Assembly: GCA_963713865.1 (NCBI GenBank)
Contig: OY970208.1
Location: 1,056,001-1,120,000, forward strand
DNA from: an uncultured candidate division Zixibacteria bacterium
GTDB taxonomy: Bacteria > Zixibacteria > MSB-5A5 > RBG-16-43-9
Reading direction: 5' to 3'
DNA: 64,000 nucleotides
Within the stretch, counting starts at the first letter, position 1. Every line of letters begins with the position of its first letter. Positions 23,536 through 28,775 of the stretch are shown here, piece after piece. Position numbers and translations under genes: made by a program. The notes beneath the pieces were generated by a model, which saw nothing but the letters and a program-made list of their open reading frames with translations, had not been told where the DNA came from and did no database searches.

Positions 23536-23677
23536 CCCTCCCTTGATGGCCGATTAAGCTTTACGGCTCGTAGAGGAGGGATAAAGGGAGGGTGAAATTT
23601 GTTTTTATTTTCCCTCTCCCTAACCCTCTCCCACAAGGGGAGAGGGGATTTTTTTGCTCGATTAATCGAGCAACTAC
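23536..23677. repeat. Repeat cluster: CCCTTGATGGGAGGG repeat interrupted by the 26-nt mini-element (23549-23574), a CCCTCTCCC palindrome, and a REP overlapping the OPT stop
   Basis: Comparison with the uninterrupted copy at 19824-19856; GCTCGATTAATCGAGCAACTAC at ~23656. Confidence 0.8.
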
Positions 23678-25644
23678 ATCCTTTGTTTCTCAGGCTTGCC
23701 CAGCCGGGTAGAATTCCACAAAAGGAAAATGATAATGGCAAAACAGATCAGGGCTAACCAGGGTCCGAAACTACCGGAAAGGCTCACTGCTTCATGCGAT
23801 TCCCAAAAAGCAGCATAACTCGGTACAGAGGCAATAAGGAAAGCAATTAAAACCCCGACTAAAGCATCACCTGCTACCAGCCCTGAGCTGAACAGGATTC
23901 CGTTCCCTTCCCTTTCTTTATACTGATGTTCTTTGGACAATTTCTGCACTATAAGAGCGATTATCCCTCCAGCCATAATCGGGGTGGAAAGGTCCAAAGG
24001 CAGATACAAACCGATGGCAAAGGGCAAAGATGAAACCCCTAAAAGCTCAACTGTTAAAGCTATCATCGCTCCGGCAATTATATAGAGCCAGGGAATACCA
24101 CCGGTCATAACCCCCTGAACCACGGTTGCCATCACATTAGCCTGGGGGGCTAAAAGGGGTACAGGATGAGCATCGCTTTTGACAAATCCAAAAGCAGAAT
24201 TTAGAAGAAAAACTGTAAACCCCATAAAGATAGCCGGGAAAATCAATCCCACAAACTCCATCAACTGCTGGCTTTTCGGAGTTGAGCCCAGGAGATAGCC
24301 GGTTTTTAAATCCTGAGCGATATCCCCGGACATACATACTGCTATGCAAACCACCGTGCCTATAGTCATAACTGTGACCATCCCTTTAAAGCCGGACACT
24401 CCAAAAGCTAAAAGGACTAAACTGGTGACTAAAATTGTAGCTAAAGTCATTCCAGAGACCGGAGAAGATGAGCTCCCCACAATTCCCACAATTCGGGCTG
24501 CCACGGCTACAAAGAAGAAGCCAAAGATTACGATCAGTAATGTTCCCAAGAAATGAAGATTTGTTCCAGGGTAGACCCAGATCAACAAAGTAGCTAAAAG
24601 GGAACCAAATAAAACCACATACATCGGAAGGTCCTGGTCAGTTCTAAGCTTCTGAGGCTGTCCTGATTTCTTCTGAGTTATTTCTTTTACTCCTCCAGCA
24701 AAAGAGTGGACAATAGCAGGAATAGCTTTAGCTAAGCTGACAAAACCTCCTAATCCTACTGCTCCCACTCCTAAAAATTTTATGAAATTGTTTCTGATCT
24801 CCGAGGGGGTCATCTCTGAGATAAGCTTAGTTGCTGGTGGAACTAAATTTGGCATATATTGTCCCAAGTAAGCGATCAAAGGGGCTATACCCAAATAACC
24901 TAATACTGCACCTGCCAGCATAAGGGCGGAAGTTCGTGGACCTATGATATAACCCACTCCTAACAGGGCTGGGGTAGCGTCGATTCCTACATTAGCTCCC
25001 TTGAGGAAGGGAAGGTTATAATTGGGAGTCTCGGGCCAGAGCCTGATACCGCCCATTAAAGTCTTGTATAAAGCTGAAAATCCTATACCAAAAAATACAG
25101 TCTTAGCTTTACTTCCTCCTACATCCCCGGCTTTTAAAATCTCGGCGCAGGCGGTCCCTTCAGGGAATCTCAATCTTCCATGTTCTCTAACAATCAGATA
25201 CCTTCTTAAAGGGATCATAAACAAAATCCCTAAGGTACCCCCCAGGATGGACAAAAAGATTATATCTAAATTTGAAATAGGATGAGAGAAACCAGAAAGG
25301 GTCTCATTCCAGATGAAAAAAGCCGGGATGGTGAAGATAATTCCTGCAGCTAAGGATTCACCAGAAGAGCCTATGGTTTGAACGATATTATTCTCCAAAA
25401 CCGTTCCCGTTTTGAAAATCCCTCTTAAAACTGCCATAGAGATTACTGCCGCAGGGATAGAGGCAGAAACAGTCATACCCACTTTTAAACCTAAGTAAGC
25501 GTTAGCTACTCCAAAGACAACGGCGATGATGGCACCCAGGATAATCGCCCTCAGGGTAAGCTCCGGTATCTTTTCATGAGCTTTTATATACGGCTCAAAC
25601 TGGTTTTGGTTCGGTTCAACCTTTTTTGGTTCAGGACTTCTCAT
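23674..25644 (-). CDS. OPT-family oligopeptide transporter
   Basis: ELTLRA, YLGLKVGMTVSASIPAAVIS, ENNIVQT, FPEGTACA, QDLKTG, APQA; many TM helices. Confidence 0.92.
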   Translation of the reverse strand: MRSPEPKKVEPNQNQFEPYIKAHEKIPELTLRAIILGAIIAVVFGVANAYLGLKVGMTVSASIPAAVISMAVLRGIFKTGTVLENNIVQTIGSSGESLAAGIIFTIPAFFIWNETLSGFSHPISNLDIIFLSILGGTLGILFMIPLRRYLIVREHGRLRFPEGTACAEILKAGDVGGSKAKTVFFGIGFSALYKTLMGGIRLWPETPNYNLPFLKGANVGIDATPALLGVGYIIGPRTSALMLAGAVLGYLGIAPLIAYLGQYMPNLVPPATKLISEMTPSEIRNNFIKFLGVGAVGLGGFVSLAKAIPAIVHSFAGGVKEITQKKSGQPQKLRTDQDLPMYVVLFGSLLATLLIWVYPGTNLHFLGTLLIVIFGFFFVAVAARIVGIVGSSSSPVSGMTLATILVTSLVLLAFGVSGFKGMVTVMTIGTVVCIAVCMSGDIAQDLKTGYLLGSTPKSQQLMEFVGLIFPAIFMGFTVFLLNSAFGFVKSDAHPVPLLAPQANVMATVVQGVMTGGIPWLYIIAGAMIALTVELLGVSSLPFAIGLYLPLDLSTPIMAGGIIALIVQKLSKEHQYKEREGNGILFSSGLVAGDALVGVLIAFLIASVPSYAAFWESHEAVSLSGSFGPWLALICFAIIIFLLWNSTRLGKPEKQRM

Positions 25645-25818
25645 ATTCCTCCTCTTAGCTTAAAATTTGAAAGATCAGTTTTCAATAATTACCCAAAGCT
25701 AATATTATGAAAGCTCTGAGTCAAGTTTTTTCAGTTTGGAGGGATTCAAAATTTTAAACCCCTACAAATTGTTTTCTTGTTGGCGACCCTGAAAGGGTCA
25801 CACTTGTATATTGAATAT

Positions 25819-26017
25819 TATGTTTATATTTTACAGGTGAATAAGGGATATACCCTTCACCCAATGGTGGAAGGGAACCTTGCCGACAGATCGTGTCGCA
25901 CTTGGGCTAAAAGCTCGTTCGTAGCTTGGTCGTCGGCAAGGTCCCTTGTGCCTCTGCAAGCTCGAACAGTCGAATGGTTAAAAAGACCGCATAGCAAGTA
26001 TGGGCTACCAGAGGCAA
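25819..26017 (+). ncRNA. Bridge RNA (predicted; ends approximate)
   Basis: 5' hairpin 25836-25861; target-binding loop in stem 25871-25887/25932-25947 with guides GTCGCACT and TCGTAG; donor-binding loop in stem 25949-25956/26009-26016 with guides ACAGTCG and CAAG. Confidence 0.82.
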
Positions 26018-26049
26018 GTTAATTAAATTATACTAAAGGAGGAGTAGTT

Positions 26050-26976
26050 ATGCAACAGATAGTTTGCGGGATTGACGTTAGTTCAGAGGAGCTTGAAGCT
26101 TGCATTCTTTTGGCAGATGATACTGCTAATCCACACCGCCGGACCTTCAGCAACACCAGGAAAGGTATTAAGAAGTTCATATCTTGGTTAAGGGGTAACA
26201 AAGTAGAGTTGGTAGTTATGGAGGCATCAGGAGGGTATGAGCGGGTTTGTAGGAGGATGTTAAGAGAGTTAGGGATTCAGGCTCATGTAGTTAATCCTGC
26301 ACGGGTAAGGCATTTTGCCAGGGGGATAGGAAAACTGGCGAAGACGGACAAGATTGATGCCCGGGTTATAGCCAGATTTGGACAGGTGGTGAAGTTAGAG
26401 GAGTTAGGGGAGATAAGTGAGATGGAGTTGGAGATTCAGGAGCTTATCAAAAGGCGGCAGGAGTTGCAGGAAATGGTAGTGGCAGAGAAAAACAGGCTTC
26501 GTATAGCAGAGAGGGAAAAGGCAAAAAGCCTTAAAAGGATAATCAAGGTATTGGAGAAGGAGCTTGAGCTGATGGATGAGAGGATAAAGGAATTAGCTCA
26601 AAAAGATGATCAGATTATGCGGAAGGTTGGATTTTTAAGAAGGGAAAAAGGGATGGGATTTATCACCGCTATAAGTTTACTTTCTTGTTTACCTGAGTTG
26701 GGGAGAGTAGATAGGAAAAAGATATCTGCGTTGGCGGGGGTGTCACCTTTCAACCGAGAGAGTGGCAAGTGGAAAGGTAAAAGCTTCATAAGTGGAGGAC
26801 GTGGACTCATAAGAAAGATCCTGTATATGCCTGTCTTGGTAGCAATAAGATTTAACCAGAAGCTAAAAGAGTTTTATCAGAGGTTATTAGCTTCAGGAAA
26901 GGCAAAAAAAGTAGCCGTGGTTGCGGTGATGCGCAAATTACTAATTATCTGTAATGCCATTTTAAAAAATGCTTGA
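26050..26976 (+). CDS. IS110-family recombinase/transposase
   Basis: RuvC-like DEDD residues in GIDVS, VMEASG, KTDKID; Tnp-domain serine in PFNRESG; GGRG, AVMRKLL; SD AAGGAGG. Confidence 0.95.
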   Translation: MQQIVCGIDVSSEELEACILLADDTANPHRRTFSNTRKGIKKFISWLRGNKVELVVMEASGGYERVCRRMLRELGIQAHVVNPARVRHFARGIGKLAKTDKIDARVIARFGQVVKLEELGEISEMELEIQELIKRRQELQEMVVAEKNRLRIAEREKAKSLKRIIKVLEKELELMDERIKELAQKDDQIMRKVGFLRREKGMGFITAISLLSCLPELGRVDRKKISALAGVSPFNRESGKWKGKSFISGGRGLIRKILYMPVLVAIRFNQKLKEFYQRLLASGKAKKVAVVAVMRKLLIICNAILKNA

Positions 26977-27086
26977 TTTTCAAGACAGTCGCTACGATGT
27001 TCAGGTACATTTAAAAAACTTTCTCCTTGCTTTCTCTTCTGAAAAACTTAAATTCTTTAAAGGACGTTCATCCAAGGAGATGTTTT

Positions 27087-28775
27087 ATGACCCATAAAGG
27101 TTACAGGTTTTTTTGCGGTTCGGTCTTAATCTTTTTTCTTTTTACAGCCTTTACTTTCGCTCAAGAGAGGAAAAGCAGTAAAAGTTTTAACGATTATCTT
27201 GCTTTTAGCCATTTCGTAAATGGAACCTTATATGAGCTTTCCGGGGACTTAAATTCAGCCGTTCAGGAATATAAAAATGCCCTGAATTATTCACCTGAGT
27301 CCTACACCCTGAAATTTTCCCTGGCTCAGGATTATTTCAAGTTAGGAGATATTGAGAATGCTTTAAAAGAGGTGGAAAAGATAGAGCCTAAAACGGGTGA
27401 AGCCTGGGCTTTTATGGGAGATTGTTACCGTAATCTGAATAAAAAAGATAAAACCATCGAGTCTTACAAAAGGGCAGTTCAGACTGATTCTAATCTTATA
27501 GCACCTTACTGGTATCTTGCCCAGGACTGGCAACAAGCAGGAAAAATTGATTCAGCCATCTATGCCTGGAGAAAAATAGCTTCAGACTCTCCGTTTAGTA
27601 AATCGATCTATTTGAATTTAGGATTTCTTTTAGAAACGCAAGGCAGGTTGGATGAAGCACTGCAGGAGTATAAAAGAGCTTCAAATGTGGATCCCTACGA
27701 CAAAAAAGCCCTTTTGTCCATAGGGGGAGTGTATGAAGCGCAAAAGGATTTCACTCAGGCAATAAGAGTATATCAGGAAGCCTTAGCCCAGGATACAACC
27801 GATATACTCGTTCGCACCAAACTGGTTCAGCTTTATTTTAACTCCGGAGACAGGGAAAAAGCTTTAGATGAAGGAATTAAACTATATGAACTTCGTCCAC
27901 AGGATAAGAATGTCAAAAGGTTATTAGGAGGAATCTATCTTTCCCTGCAAAAATACCCTCAGGCAGAGACTCTTTTCTCTGAATATATTAAAGCTGATTC
28001 AACTGACCCTGGCGGTTATCTTTTTTTAGGCAGAACTTTCTTAGAAGAAAAAAAATATCCACAGGCTAAAACTATGTTCCAGAGAACTATCGCCCTGAAC
28101 GATTCATTGTCCGGAAACGGATCCGTAGGACAGGAAGCCTGGGTAAATTTAGGAATAACTTACTTAGAGGAAGATAGCCTTTTAAAGGCAAAAGAAACAT
28201 TTTCACAGGCACTTCCTAAAGTTGAGAGGAAAGACGAAATTTATTATTTTTTGGGTCTGGTTTATTCCAGACTGAAGGAATTTCCTCAAGCGATAGAATT
28301 TTTACTGAAGGCTGATTCTCTCAATCCGGAGAACACTCAGGTCCTTTTCCTTTTGGGCTCAGCTTATGAACAGAGTAAAAACTTTGAGCTATCGGTCTCT
28401 ACTTTTGAAAAGGTTTTATCAAAGGACCCGGAAAATGATGAAGCTTTGAACTACTTAGGTTATATGTTAACAGATAAAGGGGTAAGGTTAGATGAAGCTT
28501 TAAAAATGATTGAAAAAGCTTTGGAGAAAAAGCCGGACAATGGTGCCTATTTAGATAGTTACGGCTGGATTTTGTTCAGACTGGGAAAAGTAAATGAAGC
28601 TGAAATCCAGATAAGGAAAGCATTAAAGACCCAGTTTAAAGATGCAGTGCTCTATGAACATTTAGGTGATATCTTAGATGCCTCAGGTAGAAAAGAAGAA
28701 GCAAGGCAACAGTGGGAAAAAGCTTTGGAGCTTAACCCTGAGAACGAAAAGATTAAAGCGAAATTGGGGAAATAA
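27087..28775 (+). CDS. Exported multi-TPR protein
   Basis: ATG 27087 after AAGGAG; signal peptide; many TPRs; C-terminal ALNYLGY...YLDSYGW...EHLGD. Confidence 0.85.
   Translation: MTHKGYRFFCGSVLIFFLFTAFTFAQERKSSKSFNDYLAFSHFVNGTLYELSGDLNSAVQEYKNALNYSPESYTLKFSLAQDYFKLGDIENALKEVEKIEPKTGEAWAFMGDCYRNLNKKDKTIESYKRAVQTDSNLIAPYWYLAQDWQQAGKIDSAIYAWRKIASDSPFSKSIYLNLGFLLETQGRLDEALQEYKRASNVDPYDKKALLSIGGVYEAQKDFTQAIRVYQEALAQDTTDILVRTKLVQLYFNSGDREKALDEGIKLYELRPQDKNVKRLLGGIYLSLQKYPQAETLFSEYIKADSTDPGGYLFLGRTFLEEKKYPQAKTMFQRTIALNDSLSGNGSVGQEAWVNLGITYLEEDSLLKAKETFSQALPKVERKDEIYYFLGLVYSRLKEFPQAIEFLLKADSLNPENTQVLFLLGSAYEQSKNFELSVSTFEKVLSKDPENDEALNYLGYMLTDKGVRLDEALKMIEKALEKKPDNGAYLDSYGWILFRLGKVNEAEIQIRKALKTQFKDAVLYEHLGDILDASGRKEEARQQWEKALELNPENEKIKAKLGK

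What the first reader, a model, noticed from the sequence alone, without database searches (positions are those of the whole stretch)
25782..27000. IS110 sits inside a REP hairpin; empty target and donor junction can be reconstructed
Seen: joining the flanks at the CT core gives GGCGACCCTGAAAGGGTCACA-CT-ACGAT, a REP hairpin ending in CTAC like others in the window. The circle junction is ACAGTCG-CT-TGTAT. Established: IS621 targets E. coli REPs with a CT core and donor ACAGTATCTTGTAT. Inference: an IS621-like element retargeted to a different REP family in a distant lineage.
Basis: partly seen in the sequence, partly recalled or inferred. Interest (0 to 1): 0.7.

Follow-up and report, generated by a model that had tools for sequence, protein, structure and literature searches.

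The report
Bridge-RNA insertion sequence targeting REPs
A small RNA-guided jumping gene of a known family (IS110, like IS621 of E. coli) sits at the tail of a repeated hairpin, and its built-in guide RNA matches that repeat; this is what the family is known to do, seen here in an uncultured soil or sediment bacterium.

Summary

- **Element:** window 25805-26993 is a 1189-bp IS110-family element. It has a 245-nt left end, a 308-aa DEDD/Ser recombinase gene and a 17-nt right end.
- **Insertion point:** it sits at the CT of the CTAC tail that follows a REP hairpin.
- **Copies:** 3 of 3 genome copies have the same ends and lie in the same REP family.
- **Empty sites:** two related genomes and contigs from two metagenome runs carry the exact empty site at this locus (...GGTCACACT|ACGAT...).
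- **Guides:** the left end folds into a 5' stem-loop plus two internal-loop modules. Their unpaired strands match the target and the donor in the IS621 scheme.
- **Target abundance:** the 13-mer read from the target guides occurs 24 times exactly in the 2.72-Mb genome, against about 0 expected.
- **Host repeats:** the genome holds a large hairpin+CTAC REP population and genes that score as REP-associated tyrosine transposases.
- **Novelty:** NCBIfam already names the protein "IS110 family RNA-guided transposase", and REP targeting by IS110 elements is in print. This is a new member of a known kind.

The most interesting by-product lies outside the window. It is a 98-nt left-end fragment of a sister element that is retargeted to another REP tail and ends exactly at its own target-guide DNA.

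The parts
25783..25802 (+). REP hairpin that forms the left half of the target: arms 25783-25789 and 25795-25801, loop TGAAA, then A. Its 3' arm is the left target (LT).
   Evidence: Read. The same hairpin stands without the element in G001 and G002. 41 of 61 unoccupied TC[AG]CACTAC sites in the genome have a matching 5' arm.
25803..25804 (+). Left copy of the CT core
   Evidence: CT stands at both junctions of 3 of 3 copies. The empty sites hold a single CT.
25805..26993 (+). The IS110-family element, 1189 bp counting one CT
   Evidence: Three copies by blastn. A skip of exactly 1189 bases in metagenome contigs. Empty orthologous sites.
25805..26049 (+). Left non-coding end (245 nt) that encodes the putative bridge RNA
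   Evidence: MFE -83.3 kcal/mol, z -4.56, 0 of 200 shuffles fold as well. No Rfam family matched.
25807..25812 (+). Candidate -10 box TATATT. In a circle it would lie 17 bp from TTGATT of the right end.
   Evidence: Script scan of the joined ends: 9 of 12 consensus positions, against a best of 8 of 12 in the integrated junction. Consistent with a junction promoter, not decisive.
25836..25861 (+). 5' stem-loop of the putative bridge RNA
   Evidence: Present in both the free and the constrained fold.
25871..25947 (+). Target-binding loop module: outer stem, internal loop, inner hairpin
   Evidence: Constrained fold.
25895..25902 (+). Left target guide GTCGCACT, identical to LT plus core of the REP consensus
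   Evidence: 8 of 8 identical to the site of copy B; 7 of 8 to copy A, where the difference is guide G against target A; 7 of 8 to copy C. The 8-mer appeared in 397 of 200000 shuffles of the left end.
25918..25924 (+). Right target guide TTCGTAG, the reverse complement of CT+ACGAA
   Evidence: The three occupied sites match 6, 4 and 6 of 7. Found in 3465 of 200000 shuffles. Together with the left target guide: 4 of 200000.
25925..25926 (+). Candidate handshake guide CU of the target loop. Its C could pair with donor position 7 (G).
   Evidence: Position by analogy with IS621 nt 81-82 (PMC11208158, passages). Sequence. Inference.
25949..26016 (+). Donor-binding loop module
   Evidence: Constrained fold. 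Its sequence is conserved in distant relatives (...GAACAGTCG...GCAAGG.TGGG).
25966..25972 (+). Left donor guide ACAGTCG, identical to the last 7 nt of the element before the core
   Evidence: Found in 2326 of 200000 shuffles. All three guides together: 0 of 200000.
25991..25998 (+). Right donor guide ATAGCAAG. CAAG pairs with CT+TG, G lies opposite T, one A is left over, and AT pairs with the last two donor bases.
   Evidence: The split scheme matches the description for IS621: A157-U158 / C162-G165, G161 opposite dT12, two U flipped out (PMC11208158, passage).
25999..26000 (+). Candidate handshake guide UA of the donor loop. Its U could pair with target position 7 (A).
   Evidence: By analogy with IS621 nt 166-167. 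Inference.
26050..26976 (+). Recombinase gene, 308 aa. D9, E58, D100, D103 and S238 align with IS621 D11, E60, D102, D105 and S241.
   Evidence: ORF. Pfam PF01548 at 94.4 bits and PF02371 at 55.3 bits. NF033542 at 211.4 bits. PDB 8wt6 at E 1.5e-36. Catalytic residues are named in PMC11208158.
26814..26816 (+). AAA run that is AA in copies B and C, giving a frameshift after about residue 255. The window copy is the only intact one.
   Evidence: Alignment of the three copies and tblastn. Metagenome contigs X1, X2 and X4 that cover the place list no indel there (table 4).
26973..26978 (+). Candidate -35 box TTGATT, overlapping the stop codon
26977..26993 (+). Right non-coding end, 17 nt: left donor ACAGTCG at 26985-26991 and core CT at 26992-26993
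26994..26998 (+). Right half of the target (ACGAT). Its AC completes the CTAC tail of the REP.

Best explanation
Window 25805-26993 is an autonomous IS110-family, IS110-subgroup insertion sequence that works like IS621.

Proposed mechanism:
- A DEDD/Ser recombinase acts with a bridge RNA encoded in the 245-nt left end.
- One internal loop of the RNA reads the target. [quoted passage not shown] - The other loop reads the element's own joined ends: ACAGUCG, and the split AU-A-GCAAG.
- Recombination at the CT core places the element between CT and AC of the CTAC tail of one REP family.

Shown here: the boundaries, the precise empty sites, three copies in one REP family, protein family and catalytic residues, guide-to-DNA matches, and the abundance of matching sites.

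Inferred: that the RNA is made, that a circle forms and drives it from a junction promoter, and that the guides rather than the hairpin shape decide the site.

Copies B and C share one frameshift and are otherwise identical to A. One of them most likely arose by transposition of an already defective copy, using the recombinase of copy A in trans. This is also an inference.
For: **Boundaries and precision.**
- 3 of 3 copies share identical ends.
- Empty orthologous sites exist for copy A in G001 and G002 and for copy C in G001.
- Contigs of runs X1 and X2 skip 1189 bases.
- Other contigs of X1, X2 and X4 carry the element with different flanks. Their homology starts at 25782/25783 and ends at 26995-27003 (tables 7 and 8).

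**Protein.**

**Architecture.**
- Left end 245 nt against right end 17 nt, as stated for the IS110 subgroup (PMC11208160, passage).
- The fold gives a 5' stem-loop and two modules.

**Guides.**
- The 13-mer read from the two target guides occurs 24 times exactly, 35 times with one mismatch and 42 times with two. A 1-Mb first-order Markov simulation gave 0, 0 and 6.
- Shuffles of the left end held all three contiguous guides in 0 of 200000 trials.

**Covariation with the target.**
- A sister fragment in the same genome has TGCCCCT at the homologous guide position, and TGCCCCT is also its left target plus core.
- Among 57 left ends examined (55 relatives plus copies A and B), the 5-9 nt before the left end recur at the guide position in 17. 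The repeat is 8-9 nt long in 6 of them, copy B included. L008 and L014 differ at the same base in both guide and target.

**Donor.** ACAGTCG-CT-TGTAT differs at 2 of 14 positions from the IS621 donor printed in PMC13396178.

**Recent activity.** The copies differ by a single base, and the locus is polymorphic in metagenomes.
Against: - No RNA data were available, and no circle junction was seen. The only joint in the contigs laid is the empty site.
- The junction promoter scores only 9 of 12 against 8 of 12 for the integrated context.
- The left donor guide does not extend into the core: A stands where IS621 has C.
- None of the 24 perfectly matching sites is occupied. The three occupied sites have 1 to 3 differences from the guides. 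With three insertions this is not significant.
- In the comparison of relatives, 40 of 57 rows gave no repeat. This is partly because the script accepted only left ends beginning [CT]TTGT.
- The unconstrained MFE structure pairs parts of the guides with each other. The two-loop picture costs 5.3 kcal/mol (-78.0 against -83.3).
Confidence: 0.9

Rival explanations
1. The hairpin belongs to the element. The true left boundary would be 25783, and the element would carry its own terminal palindrome instead of landing beside a host REP.
For: Homology among the three copies, and in metagenome contigs, starts at 25782/25783 and not at 25805.
Against: - The hairpin stands alone, followed directly by CTACGA, at the orthologous loci of G001 and G002 and at the locus of copy C in G001.
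- 61 unoccupied TC[AG]CACTAC sites exist in the genome.
- The hairpins of copies A, B and C differ from one another, and copy C has a compensated stem, while the element is identical in all three.
Confidence: 0.02
2. Site choice is set mainly by the recombinase recognising the REP stem-loop as a structure. The guide matches would add little.
For: - All three sites keep a stem. Copy C has compensatory changes in both arms.
- A 2026 preprint reports that a target stem-loop is a second specificity determinant for ISPpu10 (10.64898/2026.03.19.712850, abstract only).
Against: - The guide matches are far beyond chance.
- They covary with the target in the sister fragment and in relatives.
- The genome holds over a thousand hairpin+CTAC repeats with other stems, yet all three copies lie in the one family that matches the guide.
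- A contributing role for the stem is not excluded, and that would complement the guides, not replace them.
Confidence: 0.05
3. The element is a member of the IS1111 subgroup, with its guide RNA in the right end.
For: Same Pfam domains.
Against: The right end is 17 nt and the left end 245 nt. The IS1111 group has much longer right ends than left ends (PMC11208160, passage). All guide matches lie in the left end.
Confidence: 0.01

Closest known systems
IS621 of Escherichia coli (bridge recombinase; PDB 8wt6)
   Same: - Full-length protein alignment at E 1.5e-36, with the D-E-D-D and Ser catalytic residues aligned.
- CT core.
- Left-end RNA with a 5' stem-loop, a target loop and a donor loop.
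- The left guides are identical to the top strand and the right guides complementary to it.
- Split right donor guide with G opposite T.
- Donor sequence identical at 12 of 14 positions.
- The target is the 3' arm of a REP hairpin plus its CTAC tail. E. coli REP queries end in ...CAGGCCTAC(G), and the natural target is ATCAGGCCTAC.
- A guide G tolerates a target A in natural sites (copy A here).
   Different: - 1189 bp and 308 aa here, against 1279 bp and 326 aa for IS621 (figures from 10.64898/2026.08.14.744561, passage).
- Another REP family and another host phylum.
- The left target guide matches 6+2 nt, not 7+2.
- The right target guide matches 7 nt, against 4 in wild-type IS621.
- The left donor guide stops before the core.
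- One spacer base, not two, in the right donor guide.
- No experiment of any kind.
ISPpu9 and ISPpu10 of Pseudomonas putida KT2440
   Same: IS110-family elements inserted in REP or conserved intergenic stem-loop sequences. ISPpu10 circles form a hybrid promoter (PMC12288879, abstract). For ISPpu10 a stem-loop 5' of the target adds specificity (10.64898/2026.03.19.712850, abstract).
   Different: No sequence comparison was made here. The window element carries no ssr9-like module: its right end is 17 nt.
ISCro4 transposase (PDB 9t56)
   Same: Second-best solved relative, E 1.4e-34 over residues 6-307.
   Different: Only the protein match was seen. Nothing about its RNA or target was checked.
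Partial IS110 circles and reintegrated partial fragments (preprint 10.64898/2026.08.14.744561, section 9 read)
   Same: The 98-nt sister fragment outside the window reuses the left terminus of its parent and has an internal end point, with an empty site in a relative. This is the kind of product that section describes.
   Different: That section does not tie internal end points to the DNA that encodes the left target guide. The fragment here ends exactly there.

Membership tests
IS110 family, IS110 subgroup (bridge-RNA-guided recombinase elements, IS621-like) | [quoted passage not shown] | tested here: met
   PF01548 at 94.4 bits (cut-off 29) and PF02371 at 55.3 bits (cut-off 21.3). NF033542 'IS110 family RNA-guided transposase' at 211.4 bits (cut-off 140).
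IS110 family, IS110 subgroup (bridge-RNA-guided recombinase elements, IS621-like) | Catalytic D, E, D, D and conserved Ser | tested here: met
   D9, E58, D100, D103 and S238 stand opposite IS621 D11, E60, D102, D105 and S241 in the phmmer alignment. I counted the residue numbers by hand from that alignment. The chain carries two extra N-terminal residues.
IS110 family, IS110 subgroup (bridge-RNA-guided recombinase elements, IS621-like) | Long left end, short right end, no terminal inverted repeats | tested here: met
   Left end 245 nt, right end 17 nt. The first 40 nt and the reverse complement of the last 40 nt show no inverted repeat by eye.
IS110 family, IS110 subgroup (bridge-RNA-guided recombinase elements, IS621-like) | Short core (CT) at both junctions and a single core in the empty site; otherwise scarless | tested here: met
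IS110 family, IS110 subgroup (bridge-RNA-guided recombinase elements, IS621-like) | Left-end RNA with two internal loops after a 5' stem-loop | tested here: inconclusive
   Prediction only. z is -4.56. The two-loop form appears when the guides are kept unpaired and costs 5.3 kcal/mol. Donor-loop sequence is conserved in relatives. No covariance analysis of the stems was done. No Rfam model matched.
IS110 family, IS110 subgroup (bridge-RNA-guided recombinase elements, IS621-like) | Loop strands match target (LTG, RTG) and donor (LDG, RDG) in the top/bottom-strand scheme | tested here: met
   Covariation in the sister fragment and in relatives.
IS110 family, IS110 subgroup (bridge-RNA-guided recombinase elements, IS621-like) | Promoter rebuilt across the joined right and left ends | tested here: inconclusive
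   TTGATT, 17 bp, TATATT scores 9 of 12 across the junction. The best hit in the integrated context scores 8 of 12.
IS110 family, IS110 subgroup (bridge-RNA-guided recombinase elements, IS621-like) | Circular intermediate and expressed bridge RNA | not testable with these tools
   Only contigs could be laid, and they cannot show starts or rare forms. The only joint was the empty site.
REP elements with REP-associated tyrosine transposases (RAYT) | Short imperfect palindromes in many copies, with a conserved GTAG/CTAC tetranucleotide at the foot | tested here: met
   1110 of 7232 perfect 7-bp hairpins have CTAC at the 3' foot. There are 61 sites of the targeted family, 41 of them with a 5' arm. 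Inverted doublets are visible in the listing. The GTAG hallmark itself is recalled, not taken from a call.
REP elements with REP-associated tyrosine transposases (RAYT) | A RAYT gene in the same genome, flanked by REPs | tested here: met
   8 Y1_Tnp matches. The two I scanned score 100.3 and 98.9 bits on NF047646 (cut-off 80), and hairpin repeats lie on both sides of them. Which RAYT, if any, serves the targeted family was not worked out.
REP elements with REP-associated tyrosine transposases (RAYT) | Extragenic location | not tested
   The genome has no annotation here. Only the window site was checked. It lies between the divergent ORF 23674-25644 (-) and ORF 27027-28775 (+).
IS1111 subgroup | Guide RNA in a long right end | tested here: not met
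   The right end is 17 nt.

The most novel reading that the evidence does not exclude
The DNA that encodes the left target guide copies the target's left half plus core, so it can itself serve as a recombination site.

The 98-nt sister fragment at about G000 596641-596738 runs from the normal left terminus exactly to the CT of its own guide (TGCCCCT). It is flanked by the same TGCCCCT of the target, and a relative has a clean empty site.

On this reading, bridge elements can mis-excise, or throw off and reinsert, 'terminus-to-guide' pieces. Guide DNA would then be one source of the recurrent internal end points reported for partial IS110 circles.

A second, softer reading: the fixed CT core plus AC makes the CTAC tail of RAYT-type REPs a landing pad that IS110 elements use in distant phyla.
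Probability: 0.3. Interest if true: 0.55.

Novelty: new member of a known kind. Interest (0 to 1): 0.32.

Why it matters
This is a clean natural example of the bridge-RNA rule outside Proteobacteria.
- The donor side is nearly that of IS621, while the target loop is tuned to the host's own REP family.
- A sister fragment in the same genome is tuned to a different REP tail.

That supports the view that these elements diversify by rewriting a few guide bases, and that REP tails are a safe, abundant landing site.

It adds a compact 308-aa recombinase with a readable guide set to the catalogue. It changes no concept.

The fragment that ends at its own guide DNA would matter more if it is general. 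It would name a built-in weak point of such elements, and a possible source of unwanted products when they are used as tools.

Tried and rejected
- **Rfam:** 0 matches at E <= 1 over 25000-27500.
- **IS621 DNA from E. coli genomes:** the distant blastn gave only 64-67-nt matches in 19 of 5426 genomes. The one I fetched is an annotated partial IS110 pseudogene. No direct alignment of the two RNAs was therefore made. The comparison rests on the printed description of IS621.
- **Exact 21-mer of the target-loop stem:** 0 hits in genome contigs and 1 in metagenome contigs. That contig carries a copy in a long-loop REP whose homology stops near 25965, after which another transposase-like ORF follows. 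I read this as a later insertion or an assembly join, not as support for any mechanism.
- **More terminus-to-guide fragments:** a genome with six full copies of a relative showed only full-length matches. The three other genomes in that call had no match or only a short one. One query and one useful genome say nothing about generality.
- **RNA evidence:** no RNA holder listed.
- **Circle junction:** none among the joints of the four runs laid, which are contigs.
- **Empty site for copy B:** in G001 the locus lacks the REP and about 170 nt around it as well, so it gives no clean empty site.
- **Close relatives of the protein:** the best in the species-representative genomes is 48% identical over a partial match and 46% over the full length. 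Among 41 genomes of the host's class (G000 included), 10 have any match. Outside G000 the best long match is 43% identical over 267 residues, and the short fragments reach 46-65%.
- **Literature on guide DNA as a recombination site:** one search and the texts read showed no such statement. This is too thin a search to claim that it is not in print. Supplementary figures and tables could not be seen.
Full report
**What is there**

The window holds an ORF at 26050-26976 (308 aa). A 245-nt non-coding stretch precedes it and 17 nt follow it.

The protein is an IS110-family recombinase:
- It passes Pfam DEDD_Tnp_IS110 (94.4 bits) and Transposase_20 (55.3 bits).
- It passes the NCBIfam equivalog 'IS110 family RNA-guided transposase' (211.4 bits, cut-off 140).
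- Against solved structures, the best match is the IS621 transposase (8wt6, E 1.5e-36, residues 6-307 on 10-314).
- D9, E58, D100, D103 and S238 stand opposite the IS621 catalytic D11, E60, D102, D105 and S241 (the residues are named in PMC11208158, passages).

**Boundaries**

The window lies in a single 2,723,046-base contig of 40.4% G+C. blastn of the region against this genome finds three copies:
- Copy A is the window copy, 25805-26993.
- Copy B is at 196582-197769, on the minus strand.
- Copy C is at 2436500-2437687.

The search also finds one 93-nt alignment with 77% identity at 596639-596730.

All three copies begin TGTAT after a CT and end ACAGTCG-CT. In all three the CT on the left follows a hairpin and the CT on the right is followed by AC:

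| Copy | Left flank up to the CT | Bases after the right CT |
|---|---|---|
| A | GCGACCCTGAAAGGGTCACA-CT | ACGAT |
| B | GCGACCCTGAAAGGGTCGCA-CT | ACATT |
| C | GCGAACCTGAAAGGTTCGCA-CT | ACGAG |

Copy C has changes in both arms that keep the stem.

**Empty sites**

- Two related genomes were reached through the neighbouring transporter gene (94-95% protein identity). They carry the locus of copy A without the element, reading ...GGCGACCCTGAAAGGGTCACACT|ACGAT....
- G001 also has a clean empty site for copy C.
- For copy B the G001 locus lacks the REP too, so it is uninformative.
- Contigs of two metagenome runs from different studies skip exactly 1189 bases at 25802->26992. The longer one has 251 letters on its shorter side and no other differences on the left.
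- In the same runs and in X4, other contigs carry the element with unrelated flanks. Their homology begins at 25782/25783, the start of the hairpin, and ends at 26995-27003.

**The target is a REP**

- The motif TC[AG]CACTAC occurs 61 times unoccupied, and GGTC[AG]CACTAC 34 times.
- Of the 61 sites, 41 have a complementary 5' arm. 27 have a 4-5-nt loop and 14 have a 21-46-nt loop that holds a nested insert. Several stand as inverted doublets.
- Genome-wide, 1110 of 7232 perfect 7-bp hairpins (both strands counted) have CTAC at the 3' foot. Unrelated control tetramers gave 78-243.
- The genome has 8 Y1-transposase matches. The two that I scanned score as REP-associated tyrosine transposase, and hairpin repeats flank them.
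- The insertion point is the CTAC tail, 3 nt beyond the stem, not the stem-loop itself.

This is the position that IS621 uses in E. coli. The REP queries printed in PMC11208160 end in ...CAGGCCTAC(G), and the natural target is ATCAGGCCTAC.

**The guide RNA**

The left end folds well: -83.3 kcal/mol, z -4.56, and 0 of 200 shuffles fold as well.

With the four candidate guides kept unpaired, it gives three parts at -78.0 kcal/mol:
- a 5' stem-loop at 25836-25861;
- one stem/internal-loop/hairpin module at 25871-25947;
- a second such module at 25949-26016.

In IS621 the left guides pair with the bottom strand and the right guides with the top strand (PMC11208160 and PMC11208158, passages). The candidate guides fit that rule:

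| Guide | Window position | Sequence | Relation to the DNA |
|---|---|---|---|
| Left target guide | 25895-25902 | GTCGCACT | Equals the left target plus core of the REP consensus |
| Right target guide | 25918-25924 | TTCGTAG | Reverse complement of CT+ACGAA |
| Left donor guide | 25966-25972 | ACAGTCG | Equals the last seven bases before the right CT |
| Right donor guide | 25991-25998 | ATAGCAAG | Fits CT+TGTAT as described below |

The right donor guide pairs as CAAG on CTTG, G opposite T, one unpaired A, and AU on the last two bases. This is the split arrangement described for IS621, which has two flipped bases.

Further points on the guides:
- The 13-mer read from the two target guides occurs 24 times exactly, 35 times with one mismatch and 42 times with two. 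One megabase of Markov sequence gave 0, 0 and 6.
- Shuffled left ends held the three contiguous guides together in 0 of 200000 trials. The single-guide counts were 397, 3465 and 2326, and the two target guides occurred together 4 times.
- The bases after each right guide (C at 25925, U at 25999) could pair with position 7 of the other DNA, as the handshake guides of IS621 do. This is an inference.
- The occupied sites match the guides imperfectly. Left guide: A 7 of 8, with target A opposite guide G; B 8 of 8; C 7 of 8. Right guide: A 6, B 4 and C 6 of 7.
- IS621 likewise sits naturally in sites with A where its loop encodes G.

**Comparative support**

The closest proteins in species-representative genomes are at most 46% identical over the full length (Rhizobium and others). 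Their left ends nevertheless keep the donor-loop sequence.

I examined 57 left ends: 55 from relatives, plus copies A and B. I looked for the bases before the left terminus recurring at the guide position:

| Length of the recurring stretch | Left ends |
|---|---|
| 8-9 nt | 6 (copy B included) |
| 7 nt | 3 |
| 6 nt | 5 |
| 5 nt | 3 |
| none found | 40 |

The script recognised only left ends of one form, which accounts for part of the 40. L008 and L014 differ at the same base in guide and target.

**Promoter**

Joining the ends in a script places TTGATT (26973-26978) 17 bp from TATATT (25807-25812), 9 of 12 consensus positions. The integrated junction reaches 8 of 12. This fits the rebuilt promoter described for IS621 but does not prove it.

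**State of the copies**

Copies B and C are identical to each other. They differ from copy A only by one missing A in the run at 26814-26816, which shifts the frame after about residue 255. Metagenome contigs list no indel there.

The window copy is thus the only intact one. The shared defect suggests that one defective copy was moved in trans. This is an inference.

**A sister fragment**

At about 596641-596738, outside the window, lies a 98-nt piece that aligns with the window's left end from TGTAT to the guide position.
- Its left flank ends TGCCCCT.
- Its own guide position reads TGCCCCT.
- It then continues ACAAT.
- G001 has ...GGGATGCCCCTACAAT... at that locus.
- TGCCCCTAC occurs 84 times in the genome, against 20.8 expected under uniform composition.

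This is a natural case of retargeting. Its inner end falls exactly on the DNA that encodes the guide.

A preprint describes partial IS110 circles and reinserted fragments that share one terminus and have recurrent inner end points. The section I read does not name guide DNA as such a point (10.64898/2026.08.14.744561, section 9). A look in one other multi-copy genome found no such fragments.

**Verdict**

The element is an ordinary, well-preserved and recently active member of the bridge-recombinase IS110 group, tuned to a REP family of an uncultured bacterium whose nearest named records are MAGs labelled Ignavibacteria or Ca. Zixiibacteriota.

RNA expression, circle formation and guide dependence were not shown.

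Noticed in passing
G000:C1 about 596641-596738 (L097 about 342-439), outside the window: A 98-nt left-end fragment of a sister IS110 element. It is inserted at ...TGCCCCT|ACAAT and ends exactly at its own left-target-guide DNA (TGCCCCT). G001:C15 has the empty site.
   Followed up: partly
window 26814-26816; copies at G000 196582-197769 (-) and 2436500-2437687 (+): Two of the three copies share a 1-bp deletion that frameshifts the recombinase after about residue 255. Apart from that they are identical to the intact window copy.
   Followed up: partly
whole genome G000; examples in L002 and L003: Very large hairpin+CTAC REP population (1110 of 7232 perfect 7-bp hairpins), inverted REP doublets, and 8 Y1-transposase matches. 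The two that were scanned score as REP-associated tyrosine transposases and are flanked by hairpin repeats.
   Followed up: partly
G000, 14 of the 61 TC[AG]CACTAC sites (listing): The targeted REP family has variants in which the loop holds a 21-46-nt nested insert, itself hairpin-like, between the same outer arms.
   Followed up: no
L121 (metagenome contig), about 215-389 and onwards: A copy of the element in a long-loop REP. Its homology stops near window 25965, at the edge of the left donor guide, and an ORF resembling another transposase follows. This may be a later insertion or an assembly join.
   Followed up: partly
G001:C19:1-70, C23:13-48, C9:13-48: Contig ends of the related genome G001 match the right end of the element plus CT+ACGA. 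That genome probably holds unassembled copies elsewhere, while its locus orthologous to the window is empty.
   Followed up: no
L119 (G024:C94, same order as the host): A 35%-identical IS110 relative whose donor-loop guide reads ACAGTATC and whose left end starts TGTAT after CT. This is the donor printed for IS621.
   Followed up: no
window 25645-27086: The element lies in the 5' region between two divergent ORFs, 160 nt upstream of the 656-aa transporter-like ORF and under 100 nt upstream of the TPR-rich ORF. It has the same orientation as the latter. Effects on their expression are unknown.
   Followed up: no
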